This document shows positions 4-11,412 of a DNA stretch of 11,663 nucleotides, one piece after another. The notes below the pieces were generated by a model. The model was given only the letters and a program-made list of their open reading frames with translations. It ran no database searches and was not told the DNA's origin. The position numbers were made by a program, and so were the translations under genes. Within the stretch, counting starts at the first letter, position 1. Each line of letters starts with the position of its first letter. The stretch is from Candidatus Heimdallarchaeota archaeon (GTDB taxonomy: Archaea; Asgardarchaeota; Heimdallarchaeia; Heimdallarchaeales; Kariarchaeaceae): the NCBI GenBank assembly GCA_029882335.1, contig JAOUKW010000097.1, positions 1 to 11,663 of the forward strand, written 5' to 3'.

Positions 4-2139
4 ATGAACAAGAAAAGATTCCCACATAGGGAATTAGAACCACTAATACGTGAATTATGGGAAAAAGAACATATCTATGCACATGACAAGCTAAATGGAA
101 ATAAACCATATATCATTGATACTCCCCCTCCCTATGCAAATGGTCAATTGCATCATGGTCATGGGATGAGTTATACTCATATTGATATAATTGCAAGGTA
201 TCGAAGACATTTCCAACCGGTGATCTTTCCTCTTTGTTTTGATGACAATGGATTACCAACAGAGAAATTTACAGAGAAGAAGTACAATATAACTCTTGGA
301 AATTATCCAAGCAATTTCACTGAACTTTGTCATAATGAGGCATCTAAATCAATTGAAACTCAGATAGAACAATTTTCTGCTCTTGGTATGTCGTTCAGTG
401 ATTCTATTGCATACAGAACATACGATGAGAGAAGTCATAGAATAACACAAAAGAACTTCATTGAGTTATACAATAAAGGCTTGATTACACGTCAATTGGA
501 ACCCCAATTATATTGTATTACCTGTAGAACTGCCTTATCTATGGCAGATTTGGAAACAGCAAAAAGAGAATCAGAATTACTGTACCTTAAATTCCCTACG
601 TCAAATGGAGAATACATTCTTATCGCTACAACGCGACCAGAACTATTAGAAGCTTGCGTTGGAATATTTTTTCATCCAGATGATATTCAAATGGTAAAGA
701 CGATATCAATATTTCATCCACTTACAGGATTGCCCCTACCAATGTATACAGACGATAGAATAGATATGTCATTTGGGTCAGGTATCATGATGTGTTGTAC
801 ATTTGGAGATCAATTGGATTTACAATTATTCAGAGAATATAGTCTAGATTTAATATCTATTATTGATTATGATGGTTTGTTTAATTCTAAATCACAGCTT
901 CTCAACGGATTATCAATTTCAGAAGGAAGGGAAATAATGATTCAATATTTAAAAGATAAAGAAATAATAACCTCAAGAAATAAAATTATTCAAGATGTAG
1001 CTACCTGTGAAAGATGTAAAACACCAATAGAGATAATACTATCTAAACAATGGTCTTTGAATATTTTATCACTTAAAGATGAGTTATTGGAGTTGAAAAA
1101 ACAGATCAAATGGTATCCTCAATATATGGAAATAAGACTTGAAAATTGGATTAGAGGTCTTAGGTGGAATTGGATTATTTCAAGACAGAGAAAATATGGT
1201 ATTCCTATTCCTGCATTTTATTGTAATAAATGTGATAATATACTTTTTCCTTCAATCTCTGAACTTCCTGTTGACCCAAAATTGTCAATACAAGCATTAT
1301 CAAAATGTAAATCTTGTTATTCTGGAGTATATATTGCTGAAACAGATGTTTTTGATACTTGGATGACCAGTTCATTAAGTCCTCAAATTATTAAAGATAT
1401 TTATTTTCCAGATGATGAAGAGTTGATATTTGATCTCAGACCACAAGCACATGAAATAATTAGAACTTGGACATTCTATACTATGTTTAAAGCATATACT
1501 TTGAATGGAAAGAAACCTTGGGAATCAATAATGTTATCTGGATGGGGTTTAGGATTTAAAGAAAAGGGAAAAAGAAAACAGAAAGCATCCAAATCAAGTG
1601 GTTCAGGCACCAATCCATTAAACATAATTGATGAATATGGTGCAGATGTTTTTAGATACTGGAGTAGTATGGCTAGACCTGGAAAGGATCAACATTTAGA
1701 TGAAAAAATTCTAATTCGTGGTCGGAAATTAGTAACAAAATTATATAATGCTTGTAAGATAATTTTAATACTTCGAGATCGAGTAAAGAAAAATAATTTT
1801 GAGATGATAAGCGAAATCTCGAATATCATGCAATTAGAACTGCAAGATGTAAAACATTATTACAAAGAGCAAATGGATGAATTCAATTATACAGATGCTT
1901 TGAAAAAAGTAGAACAATCATTTTGGAAGATATACTGCTCCAATTATATAGAACAATTAAAGAAAATGATGGATATATCGCTTCAAGAATATAATATTTT
2001 AATTAAATGTTTTTTCGATTATTTATTGCTATTTTCCCCATTTTTACCCTTTATAACAGAGTATCTAAATTTCATAATTTCCACTGATGTAAAAAACGAT
2101 GTGAATTATTCTTCAATCCATTTACTTCAGTTTAATTGA
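4..2139 (+). CDS. valS: valyl-tRNA synthetase (class Ia aminoacyl-tRNA synthetase, archaeal-type, compact 711 aa)
   Basis: Full ORF with ATG at 4. The HIGH motif reads PPPYANGQLHHGH (HHGH at nt 151-162). The KMSKS-type motif reads KASKS (nt 1582-1596) and is followed by NPLNIIDEYGADVFRYW. The CP1 editing domain is flanked by CxxC knuckles (CITC from nt 514, CERC from nt 1006). It contains ATTRPE and GSGIMMCCTFGD, which resembles the archaeal ValRS GTGxVMxCTFGD motif. WNWIISRQRKYGIPIP matches the DWxISRQR box. The choice of Val over Ile or Leu rests on motif recall only. Confidence 0.72.
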   Translation: MNKKRFPHRELEPLIRELWEKEHIYAHDKLNGNKPYIIDTPPPYANGQLHHGHGMSYTHIDIIARYRRHFQPVIFPLCFDDNGLPTEKFTEKKYNITLGNYPSNFTELCHNEASKSIETQIEQFSALGMSFSDSIAYRTYDERSHRITQKNFIELYNKGLITRQLEPQLYCITCRTALSMADLETAKRESELLYLKFPTSNGEYILIATTRPELLEACVGIFFHPDDIQMVKTISIFHPLTGLPLPMYTDDRIDMSFGSGIMMCCTFGDQLDLQLFREYSLDLISIIDYDGLFNSKSQLLNGLSISEGREIMIQYLKDKEIITSRNKIIQDVATCERCKTPIEIILSKQWSLNILSLKDELLELKKQIKWYPQYMEIRLENWIRGLRWNWIISRQRKYGIPIPAFYCNKCDNILFPSISELPVDPKLSIQALSKCKSCYSGVYIAETDVFDTWMTSSLSPQIIKDIYFPDDEELIFDLRPQAHEIIRTWTFYTMFKAYTLNGKKPWESIMLSGWGLGFKEKGKRKQKASKSSGSGTNPLNIIDEYGADVFRYWSSMARPGKDQHLDEKILIRGRKLVTKLYNACKIILILRDRVKKNNFEMISEISNIMQLELQDVKHYYKEQMDEFNYTDALKKVEQSFWKIYCSNYIEQLKKMMDISLQEYNILIKCFFDYLLLFSPFLPFITEYLNFIISTDVKNDVNYSSIHLLQFN

Positions 2140-4537: not shown

Positions 4538-7500
4538 TTGAAACATCAAAAATTAACAATTAGTGTGTCTATATTTATAATATGGAGTATGTCACTCTCA
4601 GGATTGGTACCTGTTCAGAATGCTCAAGGATTTATTTCCTTGGATGCATCTAGATCTACATATCTAACCTATCTTGGTTATGATTATTTTGAATTAAATG
4701 CTATGGATGCAACTTATGATATAGCATGGTCGTTTTCGGGTTCAATAATAAAACCAGCAGCCTATGCTATGACCTATAATGACTTTGCATCTTTTGTTGA
4801 TACATATAATATACCTGCGACTGCAACAGTACTCAATGCAGGAGGTTTAGTATTTAGTGCTTCTGGGAATTTTATTCCTACCTCATCCGGTACTTGGATT
4901 ATTTTATTCCGTCATAACCAATCAGGTGTTGGGGGTGGATATGTTACGATTGCTGCAACTGCTACTCAAAACCTACCATATATTCAAAGTCATACTTTGA
5001 CAACATTGAATAACAACGCAGATGTGAATAACCTAGTTGATTCCGTGCGCATTACTTTTGATCCGAATATTGGCGGAGGTAGAACAGCAACTGCTACATT
5101 TACAGCATATTTATATGATTCAGACGATAATTATTCTGGTTTATCAAGCAGTGGATCGTTTACTTTTACCGGAACTCAAGTAAATAGTTTTCAATTAACG
5201 GTTGGCTATGTCACTGAATCTGATGACTATTACATTAAATTATATATGACCTATAATGGAGCAACCACTTTACAATTAACAACAATTGCAAATAGACTGT
5301 GGGAATTAGCAAGTCATCCATTTGTTGCATCAGCAGTGGTAGAACCGTATTCGTTTGATGGAGATGCTTCATCAGATTCGGCTAAATTTGCGATAAATGT
5401 AGATTTTAATACAGGTTACTCAGGAATAGTAGCAATTTACGCTGGGTTGTATCGAACAGGTGGCACTTTTATTAGAGGCGTCGGTTTTACTGATTATACA
5501 TTTACAGGTACAACTACAGCCGATCTTGTGAGAGTGGATTTAGGATCTGTGACTACGACATCAACATATTATATTTATTATCAGATAATTTGGAATAATG
5601 GCGTTGTCTCTGCAACATTTAATACACCTACTTTTTCATTAAATGCAGTTCAACCTGCTGCACCATTTTTACAATCCCTAACCACTACCCTCTATGATGA
5701 AGATACAGATGGAAATAATGATGGAGTTAGAGCAAATTTCAATCCTGATTTCAATGGAATGTATTCTGGTACGGCCACTGTAACTATTACACTCAGCTTA
5801 TGGAATGGTGCATCTTGGGTAACTCAAAATACACAGAGTTCATCATTCACTTTCTCTCAGCAGACTGTTGATGCATTTCAGATAGATATGGGGACTGCAA
5901 CAACTACTGGTTCTCACCGATTGTCGGGATATGTAACATTTAGTGGTACAAATAGTGCTACAGTTTCAACTGCTAGCTTCACTTTAAACGCGTATATCCC
6001 TCCGTCGCCATATATTGCAAGTTTAACCACCACTACATATGATTTTGATACTGATGGAAATATTGATAGTGTAAAAGCAAATGTCAATCCTGATTTTAAT
6101 CTTGCGTATTCTGGGACAGTAACGATTATAGCAAGCTTATATACATCTACAGGAACTCTTGTTACTTCACAAACCAGATCATATTCAACAACAGGTCAAG
6201 CTACCACGGTTTATACCATTGATTTAGGATATGTTTATACTACTGGATTATATTATGTACAAGCTCAACTTAAATATCTAAATGTATTAAAGGATACGAA
6301 GACAAGTACAAATTTCAATCTAAATGCCTATGTTCCTCCACCTGTTTTTAGATCTGTTAGTCATAGTACCTCTGATGCAGATGGTGATCTAAATGTTGAT
6401 ACACTTCAGATTAATGTTGACGCAGATTTTACACCTGGATATAGTGATAGTGTGACTATATTTGTTGAATTCTACAGACCTGATAATTCTCTAAGAAATA
6501 ATGTATCGCAAGTGGTTGTTGTTAACGGACAAGCTGTGTCTCCTGTTAGTTTTAATCTAGGTGGTGCTGATGTGAGTGGATTACATAAATACCATGCAAA
6601 AATATATTATCTTGGAGTACTTTACTCACATGCGATTGTTTCTATAGACCTAGATAAGGTAAAAGCCCCCCCAACTCTGACTGTCAATGGGGTTTATCTT
6701 TATGATACAGATAATGATCAAAATAATGACAGTGTGAATATATTATTCGATGTCGATTATGAACCTGGATACACAACTCAAGTCACAGTGAGTATAAATC
6801 TATATTCAGACTTAGGCGATTTACTCCAGTCATTCAATGTGATCTTAACGATTTATGGAAATATGGTGGATATTTTTAATGAAACAGTTTCAATTGCTCC
6901 AGGTCAGGGAGATTATTATATTACTGTGGCCTTATACCACCTTGGTTCTTTAATAGATGAACAAACTACAGCAAATTTCTTTTTAAATTCACTTTACGAG
7001 GAGCCTTATTTCTATGATTATTACTATGATCTGACAGATAATGATGATAATGGACAAAATGATGGTGTAATTGTTTATTTTGATGTTGACTATCCTGATG
7101 GTATTATTGATGATGTTATGATTATTGCTGAATTATATTTAGGAATGAATGATTTAATATCAACAATTAGTGGGAATTTTACAATAAATGGAACTGAAGC
7201 ATTGTTGAATGAATTAAACTTTGGATTTGTAACCGTAACGGGAGGTTATTTCATTAAACTTCATCTATATAAAGGTGATAATATAATAGAAAGTGTTTTT
7301 ACGTCTACATTCACTTTATACGCATATGAAGAAGCTCCTATTTTAGATCGTATAAATGTCAATCCATATCAATCTATAGGAGGTAATACAATTGATTCAG
7401 TCTCTATTTCTATATCTCCATATTTCAATATGATATCAGAAGGTTTAGTTACAATAAAAGTATTTCTCTATCACCAAACAAGTGGAACTATTATAAATTC

Positions 7501-7828
7501 GAATACCGATCAGCAGACAATTACAGATACTGCAATCACAATATCCTATGATTTAGGCAAAACTACAAGAGATGGACAACACTATGTCTTAGTTGAATTA
7601 TTTTATTTATCTACAACAAATCCAGATGTATCCTTGACGAGTAGTATATTCAATCTTGAATTAGGGCAATCATCGAATCCATCATCATCTAGTAGGAATC
7701 AAATAAGTCAAGATGTAACTGATGAAGGCACCAATTTAAACTATCCTTCATTTTGGGTATTCATCCTATCTTTTGGTGTTTTTGTCCTTGTAAAAAAAAG
7801 TCTTATCAATAAAATTAGGAAAAATTAG
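4538..7828 (+). CDS. secreted, C-terminally anchored cell-surface protein (S-layer/adhesin-like) with 8 tandem ~112-aa beta-rich domains
   Basis: 1096-aa ORF. The N-terminal Sec-type signal is MKHQKLTISVSIFIIWSMSLSGLVPVQNAQ|G. A unique ~116-aa head domain follows, then eight tandem domains. These are followed by a Ser-rich linker (GQSSNPSSSSRNQ), a hydrophobic helix (WVFILSFGVFVLV) and a basic tail (KKSLINKIRKN). The composition is rich in Thr, Ser, Asn, Tyr and Gly, with no Cys in the mature part. Confidence 0.9.
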   Translation: MKHQKLTISVSIFIIWSMSLSGLVPVQNAQGFISLDASRSTYLTYLGYDYFELNAMDATYDIAWSFSGSIIKPAAYAMTYNDFASFVDTYNIPATATVLNAGGLVFSASGNFIPTSSGTWIILFRHNQSGVGGGYVTIAATATQNLPYIQSHTLTTLNNNADVNNLVDSVRITFDPNIGGGRTATATFTAYLYDSDDNYSGLSSSGSFTFTGTQVNSFQLTVGYVTESDDYYIKLYMTYNGATTLQLTTIANRLWELASHPFVASAVVEPYSFDGDASSDSAKFAINVDFNTGYSGIVAIYAGLYRTGGTFIRGVGFTDYTFTGTTTADLVRVDLGSVTTTSTYYIYYQIIWNNGVVSATFNTPTFSLNAVQPAAPFLQSLTTTLYDEDTDGNNDGVRANFNPDFNGMYSGTATVTITLSLWNGASWVTQNTQSSSFTFSQQTVDAFQIDMGTATTTGSHRLSGYVTFSGTNSATVSTASFTLNAYIPPSPYIASLTTTTYDFDTDGNIDSVKANVNPDFNLAYSGTVTIIASLYTSTGTLVTSQTRSYSTTGQATTVYTIDLGYVYTTGLYYVQAQLKYLNVLKDTKTSTNFNLNAYVPPPVFRSVSHSTSDADGDLNVDTLQINVDADFTPGYSDSVTIFVEFYRPDNSLRNNVSQVVVVNGQAVSPVSFNLGGADVSGLHKYHAKIYYLGVLYSHAIVSIDLDKVKAPPTLTVNGVYLYDTDNDQNNDSVNILFDVDYEPGYTTQVTVSINLYSDLGDLLQSFNVILTIYGNMVDIFNETVSIAPGQGDYYITVALYHLGSLIDEQTTANFFLNSLYEEPYFYDYYYDLTDNDDNGQNDGVIVYFDVDYPDGIIDDVMIIAELYLGMNDLISTISGNFTINGTEALLNELNFGFVTVTGGYFIKLHLYKGDNIIESVFTSTFTLYAYEEAPILDRINVNPYQSIGGNTIDSVSISISPYFNMISEGLVTIKVFLYHQTSGTIINSNTDQQTITDTAITISYDLGKTTRDGQHYVLVELFYLSTTNPDVSLTSSIFNLELGQSSNPSSSSRNQISQDVTDEGTNLNYPSFWVFILSFGVFVLVKKSLINKIRKN
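4976..7669 (+). repeat. eight tandem in-frame protein-domain repeats (period 110-115 codons)
   Basis: Repeat units start near nt 4976, 5318, 5663, 6008, 6341, 6671, 7004 and 7337 (aa 147, 261, 376, 491, 602, 712, 823, 934). The shared skeleton is P(Y/F)(I/L)xS.TTT.YD.DTDGN.D.V.A.(F/V)NPDFN..YSGT.T(I/V)...LY....G......(F/Y)(T/S)..G.......(I/F)(D/N)(L/M)G.....G.Y(Y/F)(I/V)...L.Y.........T..F.LNAY.PP. Units 3 and 4 are the most similar to each other. Units are diverged at the DNA level and are not identical copies. Confidence 0.85.
7733..7825 (+). other. C-terminal tripartite sorting/anchor-type signal (short motif, TM helix, basic cluster)
   Basis: The last 31 aa read NLNYPSF-WVFILSFGVFVLV-KKSLINKIRKN and follow a Ser-rich linker. 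This is the same architecture as PGF-CTERM, PEP-CTERM, GlyGly-CTERM and LPXTG type signals. The motif itself (YPSF) is not one I can assign to a named class. Confidence 0.5.
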
Positions 7829-7927: not shown

Positions 7928-10624
7928 ATGAAGTTACTAAGATTAGTGGGTATGGGCTCTCAGGTTTTAAATGATTGGGTAAGAGAAATTATCTCAAATA
8001 TGTATGAGACTACATTGGATAGAGTTCTAGAGAAAATAGATAATTTTTTGAATCTAAATCTAAATAGTGAATCAAGCCTATCTCTCTTATTTCTTAAAAT
8101 AAAATGCCTTGAAGTAAAGGGTGATCATGGTGAAATATTAAATATCATAGAGGATTTACATCAATTCCCAGATCATACCTATCTCAAAAATATTTTCCAG
8201 ATAATTAAACTACAAATTGAATTATATACTAAAGATAAAAATGAAATTCTAAACAATGTAAAAATATTAGATTCCCTTAATTTAAACGGTGTGGATAAAG
8301 AATACTTAATAGAATTACATGGGGACATATTTGCATTACGAGGTGATTACAACAAAGCTATAGAACAATTTATACAGATTGATAATTCTGAATTTTATCT
8401 TGATTATGATAGGGAATATAGATTAAAAAATAAAATTGCTCAATCTTATCGAGAATTAAAAGAATATAGTCAAGGATTCAAATATGTAAATTCAATGATT
8501 GAGGATCAGGAAATAAACCGATATTCCCCTCAGCTAGCGATAGCACTTAACATTAAAGGAATTATTCTATCAGATTTGGGTAAATTTGATGAAAGTATAG
8601 ACTATTTGAACAAATCTTTGAGCATTAAAAATAGGTATAAGAATCCATTTGAAATTTCCAAAACTTATAATAATTTAGCCACCAATTATTTTTATAAAGG
8701 AGATTACATCAATGCAGAAAATTTCTTTTTAAAAAGCCTTGCAATGAGAAGAGCTACGGGTGACAAGAGAAAGATAGCTCATCTTTGTTCAAACTTAGCA
8801 GTATTTTATAATTACATCAATAACTATAGTAAAGCAATTGATTATTACAATGAAAGTATTACCTATTTTGAAGAATTAGGTAATGACATTGAATTATCTC
8901 AAGCTATCAATAATTTAGGTTTCTTACAATTCCAGAATCAAGAATATTTACAAGCTATTGAAAATTTTAATGCATCTTTAAAATTGCGAAAAAAAATAGA
9001 TAATGAAGAACACATTGCAGAAACATTATATTTTTTGGCATTAACCAAATATCGATTGGGATATTTCAAGAAAGCAGAAAAAATATCTGTTGAATTATTA
9101 AAATATAGGGAGACTGTTGGAAATAAACATCATCTTGCTGATACATTAGAATTACTCGGTGGATTATCAATGCATAAAGGTGATTTGTATGAGTCAATGC
9201 AATATTTTGATCGATGTAAGCAATATCGTCTTGAGATAGGAAATAATCATTTTACTTCTAATTGTTATATGGAGATCGCTAAATTACATCGAATAAAAGG
9301 TGAATATAATTTAGCCCTTGGTATGCTTACAAACGCATTGGAATTTATTGATAAATTACCATTAGATAAACTTAGAATTGATATTTCATATCAAATTGGT
9401 CTGGTACATTTAGAAAATCTCGATGTTACAGCCGCACAAAATACAATTGAATTAATGGAGCAATTAATATCAAATCAAGCAGATACACCTTCAAATAAAG
9501 TTCCACTTGAATTATTAAAAAATAAATTAAATAAATTGATATCAGGATCAATTGATAATATACATGTGAGAGATCTATATGATATTATTTTTAGTGGGAA
9601 AATAAAAAACATTGACCTTGTTTCGGATATAGTATTAAATTTATGTAGTACAATTACAGATGAGTTACAGCTAATAACAAATAAATCATTGTTTGAAAAA
9701 GCATTTAATTTACTTGCAAAATTAATAGAAATTTCAGAACAAACTGGTTCTCAACTACTATTATGTGAAGTATATTTATTGAAAGCTAGATTATATCTGG
9801 TCCAAAATAACCAAAATGCAATTCTTGAAAACTTAAATGAAGCAGAAAATATTGCTAATTCTCATGGATTGGGAGTAATAATCGACAAAACAAAGAACAT
9901 AAGATTAAATATAGGACTCTATACTAAGATGATTAATCTAAATAGAGATTTACAACGTTCTAATGAAGATTTGCAAAACTTTGTAGGAATAATATCACAT
10001 GATCTAAGAAATCCATTATCTATTATTGCACAATCAATAGAATTAATTAAAGTTCAAAATCCAGAGTTATTTAATAACAAGGACAGTCCAGTTACTTTCA
10101 TCGAACATAGTACTGAAAAAATTCAAAACATATTATCATCTATGGTTGAAATGTCTAAATTTAGAAAAATTGATCATCCTCATCAATTGATAAATTTCAA
10201 TGATATAATCACGAGCATTAAAACGATTTATTTGAAAGATATAATTAACACCACTGGAGCAAAAATCAATATAATAGGAGATTTTCCAGTTGTTTATGGA
10301 GATTCCACACAAATTTTTCAACTTCTACATAATTTAATTGATAATTCAATCAAATATAGAAAAATGGACGTCATCCCTGAAATTGTCATCTCTAGTAGAT
10401 CTAATGATATCGAAAAAGTAATAGAAGTCATTGACAATGGAATTGGAATCAATAAGAAGGATATCGATAATATTTTTAAAATGTTTCAAAGAGGGGAGAA
10501 TATTTCCTCAATTAATGGATCTGGTATTGGTCTCGCAATTTGCTCTCGAATCATGCAAAATCATAATGGTACAATTATAGTTGAATCTAATGATCAAATT
10601 ACTAAATTTATACTTACTTTTTAA
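7928..10624 (+). CDS. soluble TPR-repeat sensor histidine kinase (HisKA + HATPase_c at C-terminus)
   Basis: 898-aa ORF. About 650 aa carry TPR-like repeats, for example ALNIKGIILSDLGKFDESIDYLNKSLSI, YNNLATNYFYKGDYINAENFFLKSLAM and INNLGFLQFQNQEYLQAIENFNASLKL. A coiled-coil linker follows. The H-box is FVGIISHDLRNPL (His at nt 9998-10000), the N-box is HNLIDNSIKY, G1 is DNGIGI and G2 is GSGIGLAI. No hydrophobic TM segment is seen. Confidence 0.9.
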   Translation: MKLLRLVGMGSQVLNDWVREIISNMYETTLDRVLEKIDNFLNLNLNSESSLSLLFLKIKCLEVKGDHGEILNIIEDLHQFPDHTYLKNIFQIIKLQIELYTKDKNEILNNVKILDSLNLNGVDKEYLIELHGDIFALRGDYNKAIEQFIQIDNSEFYLDYDREYRLKNKIAQSYRELKEYSQGFKYVNSMIEDQEINRYSPQLAIALNIKGIILSDLGKFDESIDYLNKSLSIKNRYKNPFEISKTYNNLATNYFYKGDYINAENFFLKSLAMRRATGDKRKIAHLCSNLAVFYNYINNYSKAIDYYNESITYFEELGNDIELSQAINNLGFLQFQNQEYLQAIENFNASLKLRKKIDNEEHIAETLYFLALTKYRLGYFKKAEKISVELLKYRETVGNKHHLADTLELLGGLSMHKGDLYESMQYFDRCKQYRLEIGNNHFTSNCYMEIAKLHRIKGEYNLALGMLTNALEFIDKLPLDKLRIDISYQIGLVHLENLDVTAAQNTIELMEQLISNQADTPSNKVPLELLKNKLNKLISGSIDNIHVRDLYDIIFSGKIKNIDLVSDIVLNLCSTITDELQLITNKSLFEKAFNLLAKLIEISEQTGSQLLLCEVYLLKARLYLVQNNQNAILENLNEAENIANSHGLGVIIDKTKNIRLNIGLYTKMINLNRDLQRSNEDLQNFVGIISHDLRNPLSIIAQSIELIKVQNPELFNNKDSPVTFIEHSTEKIQNILSSMVEMSKFRKIDHPHQLINFNDIITSIKTIYLKDIINTTGAKINIIGDFPVVYGDSTQIFQLLHNLIDNSIKYRKMDVIPEIVISSRSNDIEKVIEVIDNGIGINKKDIDNIFKMFQRGENISSINGSGIGLAICSRIMQNHNGTIIVESNDQITKFILTF

Positions 10625-10994: not shown

Positions 10995-11004
10995 TTTTAT
11001 ATAT
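10995..11004 (+). promoter_or_regulatory. candidate archaeal TATA box for the 5S-like RNA gene
   Basis: TTTTATATAT lies about 30-40 nt upstream of the first base of the terminal stem (11036). A second TATA-like TATAGATAAA sits at 11012-11021. The background is so AT-rich that either could be chance. Confidence 0.3.
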
Positions 11005-11035
11005 TTTCTATCTATAGATAAATTAGAGAAAAGTC

Positions 11036-11184
11036 AATTCACAAGCCGGGAAAGTTAAGCCTTGCCACGAACGATAATACTAATATACGCGAGTTTTTGG
11101 GAAACTCGTTTGCTGCAAAAGGATTGCGGCCAAAGGGCGAGGGCTACACCGGGAAACATTCCGAACCCCGATAGCTTGTGAATT
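11036..11184 (+). rRNA. circularly permuted 5S rRNA-like gene including flanking BHB-like processing stem (predicted mature body about 11053-11172)
   Basis: This is a GC-rich island in an AT-rich spacer. Segment 11124-11166, TTGCGGCCAAAGGGCGAGGGCTACACCGGGAAACATTCCGAAC, matches the 5S 5' half (helix I 5' strand, loop A, helix II, helix III and the loop C CAUUCCGAAC signature). Segment 11050-11066, GAAAGTTAAGCCTTGCC, matches what normally follows immediately (GAAGUUAAGC plus the helix II 3' strand), yet it is encoded about 100 nt upstream. Four pairings are visible. Helix II is GGCGAGG 11136-11142 with CCTTGCC 11060-11066. Helix III is CGGG 11150-11153 with CCCG 11167-11170. Helix I is GCTGCAA 11112-11118 with TTGCGGC 11124-11130, capped by AAGGA. 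A perfect 11-bp terminal stem pairs AATTCACAAGC 11036-11046 with GCTTGTGAATT 11174-11184. Confidence 0.65.
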
Positions 11185-11207
11185 TGAGTGACTCAAGCAT
11201 TGTGCAA

Positions 11208-11213
11208 TTTTTT
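11208..11213 (+). terminator. oligo-T (T6) candidate terminator downstream of the 5S-like RNA
   Basis: The TTTTTT run lies 24 nt after the terminal stem. It is preceded by small hairpins (TGAG/CTCA at 11185-11195 and GCA/TGC at 11197-11205). Archaeal RNA polymerase terminates at T-runs. Confidence 0.4.
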
Positions 11214-11412
11214 GTTTCACTTTTTTCAAGAATAGACTTAATAAGCAGCTATTGCATAAATCTCCCATTCCTTTTGGTGGTTTGATTATTTTCATTACTG
11301 ATAAGGTTTGGTTACAAAGTGTATGAATTCCTGATGCATTGTAAACCATATGAATTTTTGAGCATTATAAATTATAATAATCAATTTGTATATAAATAAA
11401 TAAATAACAACA

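What the first reader, a model, noticed from the sequence alone, without database searches (positions are those of the whole stretch)
11036..11184. Circularly permuted 5S rRNA gene: 3' half encoded before 5' half, native termini fused by a 5-nt loop
Read 5' to 3' on the + strand, the island begins with GAAAGTTAAGCCTTGCC. In 5S rRNA this is loop B plus the helix II 3' strand, and it directly follows CCGAAC..GG. The island continues through a domain of gamma length and a hairpin GCTGCAA-AAGGA-TTGCGGC. It then runs into GCGGCCAAAGGGCGAGGGCTACACCGGGAAACATTCCGAACCCCG, which is helix I 5' strand, loop A, helix II 5' strand, helix III and loop C. All canonical beta-domain and helix I pairings exist, but gene order is rotated. 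The normal 5' and 3' ends are joined by the AAGGA loop, and the new ends fall just 3' of helix III. The core between the flanking stem arms is 127 nt (11047-11173), close to the usual ~120 nt. No 5' half lies upstream and no 3' half lies downstream, so this is not the junction of two tandem 5S genes. Permuted 5S rRNAs have been reported for some mitochondrial genomes. Permuted tRNA genes are known in a red alga and a few archaea. I am not aware of a permuted 5S gene described in a prokaryotic chromosome.
Basis: partly seen in the sequence, partly recalled or inferred. Interest (0 to 1): 0.92.

Follow-up and report, generated by a model that had tools for sequence, protein, structure and literature searches.

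The report
Circularly permuted archaeal 5S rRNA gene
This Asgard (Heimdall-group) archaeon encodes its 5S ribosomal RNA with the back half before the front half, flanked by a tRNA-splicing-type cut site that should excise and close it into a 120-nt circle. This explains why 5S rRNA genes could not be found in these close archaeal relatives of eukaryotes.

Summary
Window 11053-11172 (+) is a complete 5S rRNA in circularly permuted gene order: loop B/helix II-3', gamma domain, helix I closed by an AAGGA loop, loop A, helix II-5', helix III/loop C.

- **Model scores.** Rfam's 5S model scores 19.4 bits, below its 38-bit threshold. A covariance model built only from ordinary 5S rRNAs that I rotated at the same point scores 68.6 bits (E about 5e-14), full length.
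- **Relatives.** The same arrangement is present in at least 15 other Heimdall-group genomes or contigs, including closed genomes of Ca. Heimdallarchaeum and Hodarchaeales. About 95% of cells are paired and 18-21 base pairs show compensatory changes.
- **Literature.** The authors of the closed Heimdallarchaeum genomes reported that no 5S gene could be predicted.
- **New finding.** The 11-bp flanking stem, a 4-nt leader copy of helix III's 5' strand and two 3-nt bulges form a canonical bulge-helix-bulge motif. Splicing endonuclease cuts after 11052 and 11172, followed by RtcB ligation, would give a 120-nt circle with normal 5S connectivity. Circularisation is inferred, not shown.

I found no prior description of a permuted 5S gene in archaea.

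The parts
10996..11003 (+). Candidate archaeal TATA box (TTTATATA), about 25 nt upstream of a plausible transcription start near 11025-11028. Inferred only.
   Evidence: Read from the sequence. Similar TTAAATA/TTATATA/TTTAAATA boxes lie upstream of several relatives, at varying distances (about 45 to 100 nt) from the start of the RNA. This is weak evidence in a roughly 25% GC genome.
11036..11046 (+). Leader arm of the outer processing helix (h of the BHB), AAUUCACAAGC.
   Evidence: It pairs perfectly over 11 bp with 11174-11184. L060 has a different 10-bp sequence, AGAUCCUGAG/CUCAGGAUCU, at the same place. Hodarchaeales show GAGAUCCUG, GAGACUCUG, GAGAUUCUG and GAGAUAUUG, each matched by its trailer.
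11047..11050 (+). Leader 'decoy' CGGG. It copies helix III's 5' strand and pairs with helix III's 3' strand (11167-11170) to form the 4-bp central helix H of the BHB.
   Evidence: The MFE fold pairs 11047-50 with 11167-70. In relatives the leader 4-mer tracks helix III: CGGG/CCCG, CAGG or UCAG/CCUG or CUGA, CCAG/CUGG, CUGG/CCGG, CUGG/CCAG.
11051..11053 (+). 5' bulge AAA of the BHB. The predicted endonuclease cut lies between 11052 and 11053.
   Evidence: BHB scan. The rotated-5S model alignment starts exactly at 11053. The cut position follows the established rule that EndA cuts after the 2nd nucleotide of each 3-nt bulge (my knowledge; not tested here).
11053..11172 (+). Predicted mature 5S rRNA, 120 nt, in permuted gene order. 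It would be circular after ligation of U11172 to A11053.
   Evidence: CM R1 scores 68.6 bits over its full length. The HMM test supports the same extent. The circular fold recovers helices I, II and III; in the gamma domain it forms the local CGAGUUU/AAACUCG hairpin rather than the canonical helices IV and V.
11054..11068 (+). Loop B (GUUAA) and the 3' strand of helix II (GCCUUGCC.AC).
   Evidence: It pairs with 11135-11144. Helix II is 96.5% paired across 16 relatives, with 4 pairs changed on both sides.
11069..11111 (+). Gamma domain: helix V (11069-11074 with 11106-11111), the loop E region, helix IV (11080-11088 with 11093-11100) and loop D.
   Evidence: The Rfam 5S alignment matches this half. 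Helices IV and V covary in relatives. A competing local hairpin, CGAGTTT/AAACTCG at 11090-96/11102-08, also exists.
11112..11130 (+). Helix I as a closed hairpin: 3' strand GCUGCAA (11112-18), cap loop AAGGA (11119-23), 5' strand UUGCGGC (11124-30).
   Evidence: Helix I is 98% paired in relatives, with CG/UA/AU, GC/AU and AU/CG/UA substitutions. Caps in relatives are UUCG, UACG, UGCG, AUU, GUU, UAUUAU and AAUUA.
11131..11149 (+). Loop A (CAAA) and the 5' strand of helix II (GGGCGAGGGC), plus the loop B 5' side (UACAC).
   Evidence: Alignments A3 and A4 and the pair counts.
11150..11170 (+). Helix III (CGGG 11150-53 with CCCG 11167-70) and loop C (AAACAUUCCGAAC).
   Evidence: Helix III is 100% paired in 16-20 relatives, and 3 of its 4 pairs are changed on both sides.
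11171..11173 (+). 3' bulge AUA of the BHB. The predicted cut lies between 11172 and 11173.
11174..11184 (+). Trailer arm of the outer processing helix, GCUUGUGAAUU.
11208..11226 (+). Two T-runs (11208-11213 and 11221-11226), candidate archaeal oligo-T termination signals. Inferred only.
   Evidence: Read from the sequence. Most relatives also have T5-T8 runs within about 100 nt downstream, most of them 25-70 nt.

Best explanation
This locus is the organism's functional 5S rRNA gene, encoded in circularly permuted order.

**Proposed pathway**
1. A stand-alone transcript of roughly 190 nt is made.
2. Its leader and trailer pair over 11 bp. A 4-nt leader copy of helix III's 5' strand (CGGG) pairs with helix III's real 3' strand (CCCG).
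3. This creates a canonical bulge-helix-bulge motif: outer helix, 3-nt bulge AUA on the 3' strand, 4-bp helix, 3-nt bulge AAA on the 5' strand, then a 3-bp inner helix GUU/AAC.
4. The archaeal tRNA splicing endonuclease (EndA) cuts after A11052 and after U11172.
5. The RtcB ligase joins the 2',3'-cyclic phosphate and 5'-OH ends.
6. The product is a 120-nt covalently closed 5S rRNA. The normal loop C to loop B continuity is restored (..CCGAACCCCGAU|AGUUAAGCC..). Helix III's 3' strand switches from the decoy to its native partner. Helix I is permanently capped by a short loop.
7. The circle, or a derivative, is assembled into the 50S subunit.

**Shown versus inferred**
- Shown: permuted 5S identity, its conservation and covariation, the BHB geometry and its conservation, and failure of standard 5S detection.
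- Inferred: transcription limits, EndA cleavage, ligation, and use of the circle in ribosomes.

**Sub-confidences**
- Functional permuted 5S gene: about 0.93.
- EndA cleavage at the BHB: about 0.8.
- Circular final product: about 0.6.
For: **5S identity**
- CM R1, built only from rotated ordinary 5S rRNAs, hits window 11053-11171 at 68.6 bits (E = 5e-14) over its full length. It hits 19 further permuted loci at 51-87 bits.
- The HMM test gives 40.7 bits in native order against split, swapped hits in gene order.

**Selection on the fold**
- On a structure-blind MAFFT alignment of 16 sequences, 94.6% of cells are paired and 21 of 35 pairs are changed on both sides. Slid controls give 33-43%.
- On the alignment fitted to the canonical structure, 95.4% are paired and 18 of 27 pairs are compensatory. 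Slid controls give 28-49%.

**Only 5S available**
- Rfam finds no 5S at gathering threshold in any of the 10 permuted loci I scanned with it, the window and 9 relatives.
- Each closed Heimdallarchaeum genome has 2 permuted copies. The authors could not predict any 5S gene (PMC8813620).

**BHB motif**
- The MFE fold forms it.
- The scan finds 3-4-3 geometry with an 11-bp outer helix and a 120-nt circle in the window. L060 shows the same geometry with a wholly different 10-bp outer helix.
- Canonical or near-canonical versions occur in L012, L011, L022, the Heimdallarchaeum 'a' copies and Hodarchaeales.
- The leader decoy covaries with helix III.

**Machinery**
- EndA and RtcB were found in all archaeal genomes examined in PMC12918454. 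Circular 16S and 23S transcripts were seen in Asgard archaea.

**Precedents**
- The permuted SRP RNA gene of Thermoproteus is circularised at a site cut by the splicing endonuclease (PMC4731332).
- E. coli ribosomes function with the native 5S ends joined by a 4-nt connector (PMC7283268).
- UNCG tetraloops and 3-nt loops on helix I argue for a permanent cap.
Against: - There are no RNA data. No junction read, transcript end or cleavage assay was available.
- A protein-space search for contigs spanning the predicted ligation junction found none.
- In the window, the canonical cuts leave a 3-nt linker (AUA) between helix III and GUUAAGCC. Ordinary 5S has 2 nt there.
- In the Heimdallarchaeum 'b' copies, L026-like copies and L010, a leader hairpin is inserted between the outer helix and the central helix. 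The 3' bulge then sits in a three-way junction rather than a canonical BHB.
- In several relatives the 5' bulge is 2 or 4 nt, or the fourth pair of H is A·C.
- Absence of a conventional 5S in this particular genome could not be checked. Only 34 kb of it is on the contig.
- A Heimdall-group MAG (Kariarchaeum) is reported with a detectable 5S. The trait is therefore not universal in the group.
Confidence: 0.7

Rival explanations
1. Permuted but linear 5S rRNA. The leader-trailer structure is cut by EndA or another nuclease but the ends are not ligated. The ribosome then carries a 5S with a closed helix I and a nick between helix III and loop B. This would be analogous to the permuted mitochondrial 5S rRNA of brown algae, which stays permuted in the final product.
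For: - Permuted linear 5S rRNAs exist in stramenopile mitochondria (PMC4267664).
- No junction evidence was obtained here.
- The linear gene-order RNA folds into helices I-III by itself at -34.6 kcal/mol.
- Some relatives have imperfect BHBs.
Against: - The flanks form a precise 3-4-3 BHB whose central helix and outer helix both covary.
- Known BHB-excised RNAs are ligated by RtcB: tRNA introns, pre-16S and pre-23S, and Thermoproteus SRP RNA (PMC4731332, PMC12918454).
- The cut sites give exactly 120 nt and restore near-canonical loop C to loop B spacing, which matters only if the ends are joined.
Confidence: 0.2
2. Circular intermediate that is re-opened. The circle is cleaved in the helix I cap loop to regenerate a conventional linear 5S with native-like ends. 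Permuted tRNA genes work this way, with their circles opened by RNase P and tRNase Z.
For: - Permuted tRNA genes are expressed through a circular intermediate and then cut to the standard form (cited in PMC4267664 and PMC10085705).
- Pyrococcus 23S is circularised and then opened elsewhere (PMC7758197).
Against: - Helix I is only 7 bp and its caps are very short and stable. They include cUUCGg, UACG and UGCG tetraloops and 3-nt AUU/GUU loops.
- Cap sequence is not conserved across clades, so there is no obvious recognition site.
- No enzyme is known that would open such a loop.
- Engineered 5S with joined native ends is functional (PMC7283268).
Confidence: 0.06
3. Non-functional rearrangement: a pseudogene, the junction of two tandem 5S genes, or an assembly artefact.
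For: - Rfam's 5S model does not reach threshold.
- L012 and L078 show partial duplications next to the gene that could be assembly noise.
Against: - The identical architecture occurs in independent assemblies, including four closed chromosomes (CP084166, CP084167, CP070695, CP070760), and at a syntenic position in six Hodarchaeales-like loci.
- Compensatory changes occur in all helices.
- No second half lies on either side.
- The identical sequence was assembled independently in ENA, JGI and Logan data.
Confidence: 0.02
4. A 5S-derived non-ribosomal RNA, for example a regulatory or mobile-element RNA that happens to retain the 5S fold, with the true 5S still undetected.
For: Direct association with ribosomes has not been shown.
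Against: - All universally conserved 5S motifs are retained: loop C CCGAAC, loop B GUUAAGC, loop E UACU/GGGAA and the loop A CAUAG type.
- Copy number is 1-2 per closed genome.
- No other 5S could be predicted in the closed genomes.
- The locus is not linked to mobile-element genes in the loci examined.
Confidence: 0.02

Closest known systems
Permuted SRP RNA gene of Thermoproteus tenax (Plagens et al. 2015, eLife, PMC4731332)
   Same: Both are essential, universally conserved structured RNAs whose conventional gene was 'missing' from the genome. [quoted passage not shown]
   Different: The RNA differs (5S rRNA, a ribosome component). The phylogenetic spread is much wider here, covering many Heimdall-group Asgard lineages rather than a few Thermoproteus species. 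A leader 'decoy' of helix III builds the BHB. Circularisation here is only predicted.
Permuted mitochondrial 5S rRNA of brown algae and other stramenopiles (Valach et al. 2014, PMC4267664; Rfam mtPerm-5S)
   Same: In both, 5S rRNA has helix I replaced or closed by a hairpin, so the molecule's ends lie elsewhere. Both were missed by the standard 5S model.
   Different: The mitochondrial breakpoint is at the alpha/gamma junction, and the product remains permuted and linear. Here the breakpoint is in the beta domain between helix III and loop B, a BHB flanks it, the genome is a prokaryotic chromosome, and ligation is predicted to restore continuity. No mtPerm-5S hit was reported by Rfam.
Circularly permuted tRNA genes (Cyanidioschyzon merolae; Soma et al. 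2007)
   Same: In both, the 3' half is encoded before the 5' half, and a BHB-like motif is formed by leader and trailer. Expression goes through a circular RNA made by the tRNA splicing machinery.
   Different: tRNA circles are re-opened at the native ends by RNase P and tRNase Z. Here the native ends are fused by very short stable loops with no evident processing site.
BHB-dependent circular pre-16S/pre-23S rRNA, circular 23S in ribosomes, and permuted 23S of Pyrococcus/Thermococcus (PMC12918454, PMC7758197)
   Same: Both involve archaeal rRNA, leader-trailer helices carrying BHB motifs, EndA plus RtcB, and circular rRNA species, possibly retained in ribosomes.
   Different: Those genes are collinear with the RNA, and the permutation, where present, arises post-transcriptionally. 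The literature states that 5S is not part of this pathway. Here the gene itself is permuted and the RNA is 5S.
Engineered cp5S rRNA in E. coli (Huang et al. 2020, PMC7283268)
   Same: In both, the native 5S ends are joined by a 4-nt connector, and ribosomes remain functional in the engineered case.
   Different: That construct is artificial, opened in loop C or loop D, and covalently inserted into 23S rRNA.

Membership tests
5S rRNA (Rfam RF00001) | Three-domain 'triskelion' fold with helices I-V. | tested here: met
   All five helices can be drawn. Across 16-20 homologues 94.6-95.4% of cells are paired, with 18-21 compensatory pairs. Slid controls give 28-49%.
5S rRNA (Rfam RF00001) | Conserved loop motifs: loop C CCGAAC, loop B/helix II GUUAAGC, loop E UACU...GGGAA, and a loop A CAUAG-like sequence. 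| tested here: met
   These columns are invariant in alignments A1 and A3. The Rfam alignment matches the 3' half.
5S rRNA (Rfam RF00001) | Scores above the family gathering threshold (38 bits) in collinear order, with free 5' and 3' ends at helix I. | tested here: not met
   The window scores 19.4 bits. No gathering-level hit was found at the window or the nine relatives' loci that I scanned with Rfam. Helix I is a closed hairpin. The element is therefore a 5S rRNA by fold and motifs but not by gene order.
5S rRNA (Rfam RF00001) | Matches the 5S model once the permutation is undone. | tested here: met
   The rotated-model CM R1 scores 68.6 bits (E = 5e-14) over its full length. The HMM of ordinary 5S scores 40.7 bits on the native-order sequence, against a best shuffle of -0.7 bits.
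5S rRNA (Rfam RF00001) | Is the 5S species of the ribosome (present in the 50S subunit, sole 5S gene). | not testable with these tools
   Support is indirect only. The authors could not predict a 5S gene in the closed Heimdallarchaeum genomes, and those genomes carry 2 permuted copies each.
Bulge-helix-bulge (BHB) substrates of archaeal splicing endonuclease EndA | Two 3-nt bulges on opposite strands separated by a 4-bp helix. | tested here: met
   In the window, CGGG[AAA] at 11047-53 faces CCCG[AUA] at 11167-73, and this forms in the MFE fold. L060, L012 and L011 show the same. Relaxed variants occur elsewhere: a 2- or 4-nt 5' bulge, an A·C in H, or a three-way junction in the 'b' copies.
Bulge-helix-bulge (BHB) substrates of archaeal splicing endonuclease EndA | Flanking helices h and h' on both sides. 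| tested here: met
   The outer helix is 11 bp and the inner helix GUU/AAC is 3 bp. Outer helices covary across species.
Bulge-helix-bulge (BHB) substrates of archaeal splicing endonuclease EndA | Actually cleaved by EndA at the bulges. | not testable with these tools
   This needs a cleavage assay or RNA end mapping. EndA and RtcB are reported in all archaeal genomes surveyed, including Asgard (PMC12918454).
Permuted RNA genes expressed through a circular RNA (Thermoproteus SRP RNA, permuted tRNAs) | Gene order is a circular permutation of the functional RNA. | tested here: met
Permuted RNA genes expressed through a circular RNA (Thermoproteus SRP RNA, permuted tRNAs) | Termini of the permuted unit lie in a BHB formed by leader and trailer. 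| tested here: met
Permuted RNA genes expressed through a circular RNA (Thermoproteus SRP RNA, permuted tRNAs) | Circular junction detectable in RNA. | tested here: inconclusive
   Only an indirect try was possible. A profile of peptides translated across the predicted junction found no native-order contig of this family in 5.8 billion predicted proteins. This search had low power. Read-level data are needed.
Permuted mitochondrial 5S (Rfam mtPerm-5S) | Termini at the alpha/gamma junction, with helix I replaced by a 5' hairpin; an organellar gene. | tested here: not met
   The breakpoint here lies between helix III and loop B in the beta domain. The host is an Asgard archaeal chromosome. Rfam E-value mode reports no mtPerm-5S match.

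The most novel reading that the evidence does not exclude
Ribosomes of a large part of Heimdallarchaeia, including Heimdallarchaeaceae and Hodarchaeales (the archaea placed closest to eukaryotes), contain a covalently closed circular 5S rRNA. It is made from a chromosomally permuted gene by the tRNA-splicing endonuclease and ligase. This would be the first natural circular 5S rRNA and the first rRNA gene permuted at the DNA level in a prokaryote. The permutation would be a clade-defining character that makes 5S invisible to all standard annotation tools.
Probability: 0.55. Interest if true: 0.92.

Novelty: new variant of a known kind. Interest (0 to 1): 0.88.

Why it matters
- **It solves a concrete puzzle.** Closed genomes of Ca. 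Heimdallarchaeum were published with the remark that no 5S rRNA gene could be predicted (PMC8813620). The gene is there, in two copies, but permuted.
- **It affects genome annotation and quality standards.** Standard 5S models miss the gene, and the MIMAG 'high-quality' label requires a 5S. Heimdall-group MAGs are therefore systematically under-annotated. Antisense ORFs over the gene are being deposited as hypothetical proteins (P0251).
- **It extends a known mechanism to the ribosome.** It adds 5S rRNA to the short list of essential RNAs whose genes are permuted and rescued by the tRNA-splicing machinery. Current reviews and a 2026 study state that 5S is not part of the archaeal circularisation pathway.
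- **It gives a discrete evolutionary marker.** The rare genomic change is present in Heimdallarchaeaceae-like and Hodarchaeales-like lineages and in this AT-rich lineage. Other Asgard MAGs (Kariarchaeum, Borrarchaeum, Jordarchaeum) are reported with a standard-tool-detectable 5S gene. Eukaryotes have collinear 5S genes, so the character bears on which Heimdall lineages can be closest to the eukaryotic stem, or it requires a reversal.
- **It makes testable predictions** about circular 5S in ribosome assembly and stability.

Tried and rejected
1. **Rfam on the window.** Gathering threshold gave no hit. E-value mode gave only a 19.4-bit 5S match whose 5' half is aligned to junk, plus a chance StyR-44 match.
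2. **tRNA/tmRNA scan.** ARAGORN found nothing in the window.
3. **Bacterial promoter and terminator scan.** It was uninformative for an archaeon: 3 sigma-70-like sites, all on the minus strand, and no intrinsic terminator.
4. **Feeding a rotated sequence to Rfam.** The tools do not allow it, so I rotated ordinary 5S rRNAs instead and built a model from them.
5. **Tandem-junction hypothesis.** Rejected. No further 5S half lies on either side.
6. **Pattern-scan false positives.** Sixteen of 25 genome hits and 30 of 39 metagenome hits were ordinary 5S genes with a chance CCGAAC downstream, or unrelated sequence. Model R1 filtered out the 30 metagenome hits; I set aside the 16 genome hits by reading the matched sequences, with Rfam confirming six of them as ordinary 5S genes. 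L037 and L014 are spirochaete 5S genes followed by a partial duplicate, not permuted genes.
7. **Direct evidence for the circle.** I translated across the predicted ligation junction in 10 family members and searched the profile against 5.8 billion proteins. The search found only antisense ORFs over permuted genomic copies and ordinary 23S-5S operons of other archaea. This null result has low power.
8. **Conventional 5S in the same genomes.** I could not scan whole genomes for one.
9. **Minus-strand ORF 11080-11349 (89 aa).** It has no Pfam match and overlaps the RNA gene, so I treat it as spurious.
10. **Literature.** Ten full-text searches found no paper describing a permuted or circular 5S rRNA in archaea.
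Full report
**Origin of the window.** The window is the last 11.7 kb of a 34,269-bp ENA metagenome contig (ERZ27296342:k141_2155078). Its valyl-tRNA synthetase is 100% identical to a protein NCBI labels 'MAG: Candidatus Heimdallarchaeota archaeon'. The next-best relatives are only about 50% identical and come from Odin-, Prometheo-, Hod- and Heimdall-archaeal MAGs. The host is therefore a deep-branching, very AT-rich Asgard archaeon. The element stands out as a 41-43% GC island (150-nt windows) against mostly 21-30% in the surrounding sequence. The identical sequence was also assembled in a JGI metagenome (L068), and a Logan run (L002) carries the adjacent histidine kinase gene on a 3.9-kb contig that I did not scan for the element.

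**Checking the observation.**
- The perfect 11-nt inverted repeat lies at 11036-11046/11174-11184, with 127 nt between the arms.
- GAAAGTTAAGCCTTGCC lies at 11050-11066.
- The hairpin GCTGCAA-AAGGA-TTGCGGC lies at 11112-11130.
- Loop A, helix II 5' strand, helix III and loop C lie at 11131-11170.
- The region folds far better than shuffles (z = -4.7).
- Rfam finds nothing at gathering threshold. In E-value mode the 5S model scores 19.4 bits, and only its 3' half is really matched, to 11050-11121.

**Is it a permuted 5S?** I could not submit a rotated sequence to Rfam, so I rotated the reference instead.
- I collected ten ordinary 5S rRNAs: one Thermoplasmata, one Micrarchaeota, three haloarchaea and five bacteria. 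All were confirmed by Rfam at 80-106 bits.
- A plain HMM of them matches the window element re-written in native order as one full-length hit of 40.7 bits (E = 1.4e-12).
- In gene order it gives two partial hits in swapped order. This is the signature of a circular permutation. The best of 200 shuffles scores -0.7 bits.
- I then cut each ordinary 5S before A-GUUAAGC, joined its native ends with GAAA, aligned the products and built covariance model R1.
- R1 contains no Asgard sequence. It hits window 11053-11171 at 68.6 bits (E about 5e-14), covering model positions 1-121 of 121. It finds nothing else in the window with filters off.

**Relatives.**
- One scan of 185,579 species-representative genomes with AGTTAAGCC-N30-45-GGGAA-N45-75-TYCCGAAC returned 25 loci. 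Nine are the same permuted gene, all from Heimdall-group archaea.
  - Two copies each lie in the closed genomes of Ca. Heimdallarchaeum aukensis and Ca. H. endolithica.
  - The other five lie in five further MAGs.
- The same scan of JGI metagenomes added seven more contigs plus an identical copy of the window sequence.
- One of these, L060, is the closest relative of the window element.
- The neighbour gene of L022 is a thioredoxin reductase with 86% identity to Hodarchaeales proteins.
- I fetched six syntenic loci with the order TrxR, PTPS, MptE-like, gap, Lactamase_B_2, MutS. They include closed chromosomes CP070695 and CP070760, Ca. Hodarchaeum mangrovi and B3_Heim. In every case R1 found the permuted 5S in the gap, at 56-80 bits.
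- Rfam's 5S model reports nothing at gathering threshold for the window and the nine genome-scan loci, the only permuted loci I ran it on. It finds the ordinary 5S genes that were fetched by chance.

**Covariation.**
- On a structure-blind MAFFT alignment of 16 distinct sequences, the five canonical helices are 94.6% paired and 21 of 35 pairs are changed on both sides. The covariation score is 0.50. No shuffle in 500 reaches the percentage paired, the number of pairs changed on both sides or the covariation score (7 in 500 reach the count of further pair types). Sliding the partners by 1-3 columns gives 33-43% pairing and scores of 0.05-0.09.
- On the alignment of 20 sequences fitted to R1, whose structure comes only from ordinary 5S rRNAs, 95.4% are paired and 18 of 27 pairs are compensatory. 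Slid controls give 28-49%.
- Helix I is always a closed hairpin. Its stem covaries (CAA/UUG, CGA/UCG, UGA/UCA, AGC/GCU, AAG/CUU).
- Its cap varies freely: AAGGA, UAUUAU, UUCG, UACG, UGCG, AAUUA, AUU and GUU.

This excludes a pseudogene, a tandem-gene junction and an assembly artefact.

**Is there a conventional 5S as well?**
- I could not scan whole genomes.
- Those genomes each contain two permuted copies. The permuted gene is therefore the missing 5S.
- Other Asgard MAGs (Borrarchaeum, Jordarchaeum, Kariarchaeum) are reported with a 5S found by standard tools. The permutation is thus restricted to a clade.

**What the flanks are.** The MFE fold shows more.
- Directly inside the 11-bp stem, leader CGGG (11047-50) pairs with CCCG (11167-70), the 3' strand of helix III.
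- AUA (11171-73) is bulged on the 3' strand and AAA (11051-53) on the 5' strand.
- GUU (11054-56) pairs with AAC (11164-66).
- This is a canonical hBHBh' motif, the substrate of the archaeal tRNA splicing endonuclease.
- The leader 4-mer is a copy, or 'decoy', of helix III's own 5' strand (CGGG, 11150-53).

A systematic scan gives the following:
- The same 3-4-3 geometry in L060, with a completely different 10-bp outer helix (AGAUCCUGAG/CUCAGGAUCU).
- The same geometry in L012 and L011.
- Near-canonical versions in L022, the Heimdallarchaeum 'a' copies and Hodarchaeales.

The decoy tracks helix III across clades: CGGG/CCCG, CAGG/CCUG, CCAG/CUGG, CUGG/CCGG and CUGG/CCAG. The outer helices covary extensively.

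The Heimdallarchaeum 'b' copies and their relatives insert a conserved leader hairpin between the outer helix and the central helix. This gives a three-way junction, so the motif there is relaxed.

**Predicted product.**
- I applied the established rule that EndA cuts after the second nucleotide of each bulge. This is my knowledge and was not tested here.
- The RNA then runs from A11053 to U11172, exactly 120 nt. R1's alignment independently begins at 11053.
- Ligation would create ...CCGAACCCCGAU|AGUUAAGCC.... This is the normal loop C to loop B connection with a 3-nt linker where ordinary 5S has 2 nt.
- In Heimdallarchaeum the equivalent cuts give the canonical 2-nt linker and 121 nt.
- Folded as a circle, the 120-mer forms helices I, II and III and a gamma-domain hairpin.
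- EndA and RtcB were found in all archaeal genomes surveyed in PMC12918454. That study also detected circular 16S and 23S transcripts in Asgard archaea, while noting that 5S rRNAs are not known to follow this route.

**Mechanistic precedents.**
- The closest is the permuted SRP RNA gene of Thermoproteus. Its termini are processed by the splicing endonuclease and ligated into a functional circle (PMC4731332).
- Engineered E. coli ribosomes tolerate 5S with its native ends joined by a 4-nt connector (PMC7283268).
- The very short, stable caps on helix I argue that the cap is permanent rather than a processing site. These include cUUCGg and other UNCG loops.

**Transcription unit (inferred).**
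- A TTTATATA box lies at 10996-11003, about 33 nt before the outer stem.
- T-runs lie at 11208-11213 and 11221-11226.
- Together these would bound a stand-alone transcript of about 190 nt.
- No 23S or 16S is linked in any of the ten permuted loci scanned with Rfam.

**What remains unproven.** No RNA data were accessible.
- An indirect attempt translated across the predicted junction in ten family members and searched the profile against 5.8 billion predicted proteins.
- It recovered only antisense ORFs over genomic permuted copies, one deposited as a Hodarchaeales 'hypothetical protein', and ordinary 23S-5S operons of other archaea.
- Cleavage, ligation and the final form in the ribosome (circular, nicked or re-opened) are therefore inferences.
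- My estimates are about 0.93 that this is the functional 5S gene, about 0.8 that EndA cuts at the BHB, and about 0.6 that the mature RNA is circular.

**Comparison with what is known, and novelty.**
- Permuted 5S rRNAs are known only from stramenopile mitochondria. There the break is at the alpha/gamma junction and the RNA stays linear (PMC4267664).
- A 2023 survey of natural RNA permutations lists only that case for 5S (PMC10085705).
- Ten full-text searches found no report of a permuted or circular 5S rRNA in archaea or bacteria.
- The principle is known: a permuted gene rescued by the tRNA-splicing machinery. Its application to a ribosomal RNA gene, its spread across Heimdallarchaeia and the helix III decoy are new.
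- I therefore rate it a new variant of a known kind, of high interest.

Noticed in passing
L012 1603-1675 (CAZYCQ010000018.1): A second, partial permuted-5S copy begins about 40 nt after the trailer of the first (CCAGAGAGTTAAGCCCGGC...) and runs into a run of N. R1 scores it 20 bits. It is either a tandem duplicate or a scaffolding artefact.
   Followed up: partly
L078 about 8614-8670 (JBSWNS010000010.1): The last ~37 nt of the permuted 5S plus its trailer (ccggtctcattccgaacccggaaacaatatcccctgg) are repeated directly downstream. This is a partial duplication of the helix III/BHB end.
   Followed up: no
L006/L017/L026 and L008/L021 (Heimdallarchaeum and relatives): There are two paralogous 5S loci per genome. 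Copy 'a' lies divergent from tRNA-Ser(GCU). Copy 'b' lies about 145 nt upstream of tRNA-His(GUG) on the same strand, so co-transcription is possible. The Heimdallarchaeum 'b' copies (L008, L021) and the L026-like copies carry a conserved leader hairpin (CUGGAUGUGUUCCAG type) between the outer helix and the BHB central helix.
   Followed up: partly
window 11090-11108: A perfect 7-bp local hairpin, CGAGTTT/AAACTCG, competes with the canonical helix IV/V pairing of the gamma domain. L060 keeps a GAGUU/AACUC version. It may be an alternative precursor fold.
   Followed up: no
window 11080-11349 (-) and proteins P0241, P0242, P0251: Spurious antisense ORFs run across the permuted 5S gene. Such ORFs have been deposited as hypothetical proteins in Hodarchaeales MAGs, for example 'hypothetical protein ACXAB2_13830'.
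   Followed up: partly
window 4-2139 (+): The class I tRNA synthetase (ValRS-like) is only 711 aa. The Asgard-group homologues at about 50% identity are similarly short, 635-744 aa. The more distant homologues, bacterial and other archaeal, at about 38% identity are 780-900 aa. This suggests a shortened Asgard-type enzyme.
   Followed up: no
window 4538-7828 (+): A 1096-aa protein has many internal repeats of about 90-100 aa, an N-terminal signal-like segment and a C-terminal hydrophobic anchor. It has no Pfam match and is probably a surface or S-layer-like protein.
   Followed up: no
window 7928-10624 (+): An 898-aa protein combines a long TPR array with HisKA and HATPase_c domains (a histidine kinase). 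A CheR methyltransferase gene lies upstream on the same contig (L001).
   Followed up: no
L014 1664-1823 and L037 1467-1643: In spirochaete contigs an ordinary 5S gene is followed, after a T-run, by a partial duplicate of the 5S 5' half. This produced false positives in the pattern scan.
   Followed up: partly
L024 2218-2871: A group I intron (Rfam, 55.7 bits) sits inside the 23S rRNA gene of an Acidobacteriota MAG.
   Followed up: no
L011 2661-2715 (+): A SNORD36-like C/D-box RNA hit (31.4 bits, threshold 30) lies in a Heimdallarchaeota MAG, about 1.1 kb from the permuted 5S.
   Followed up: no
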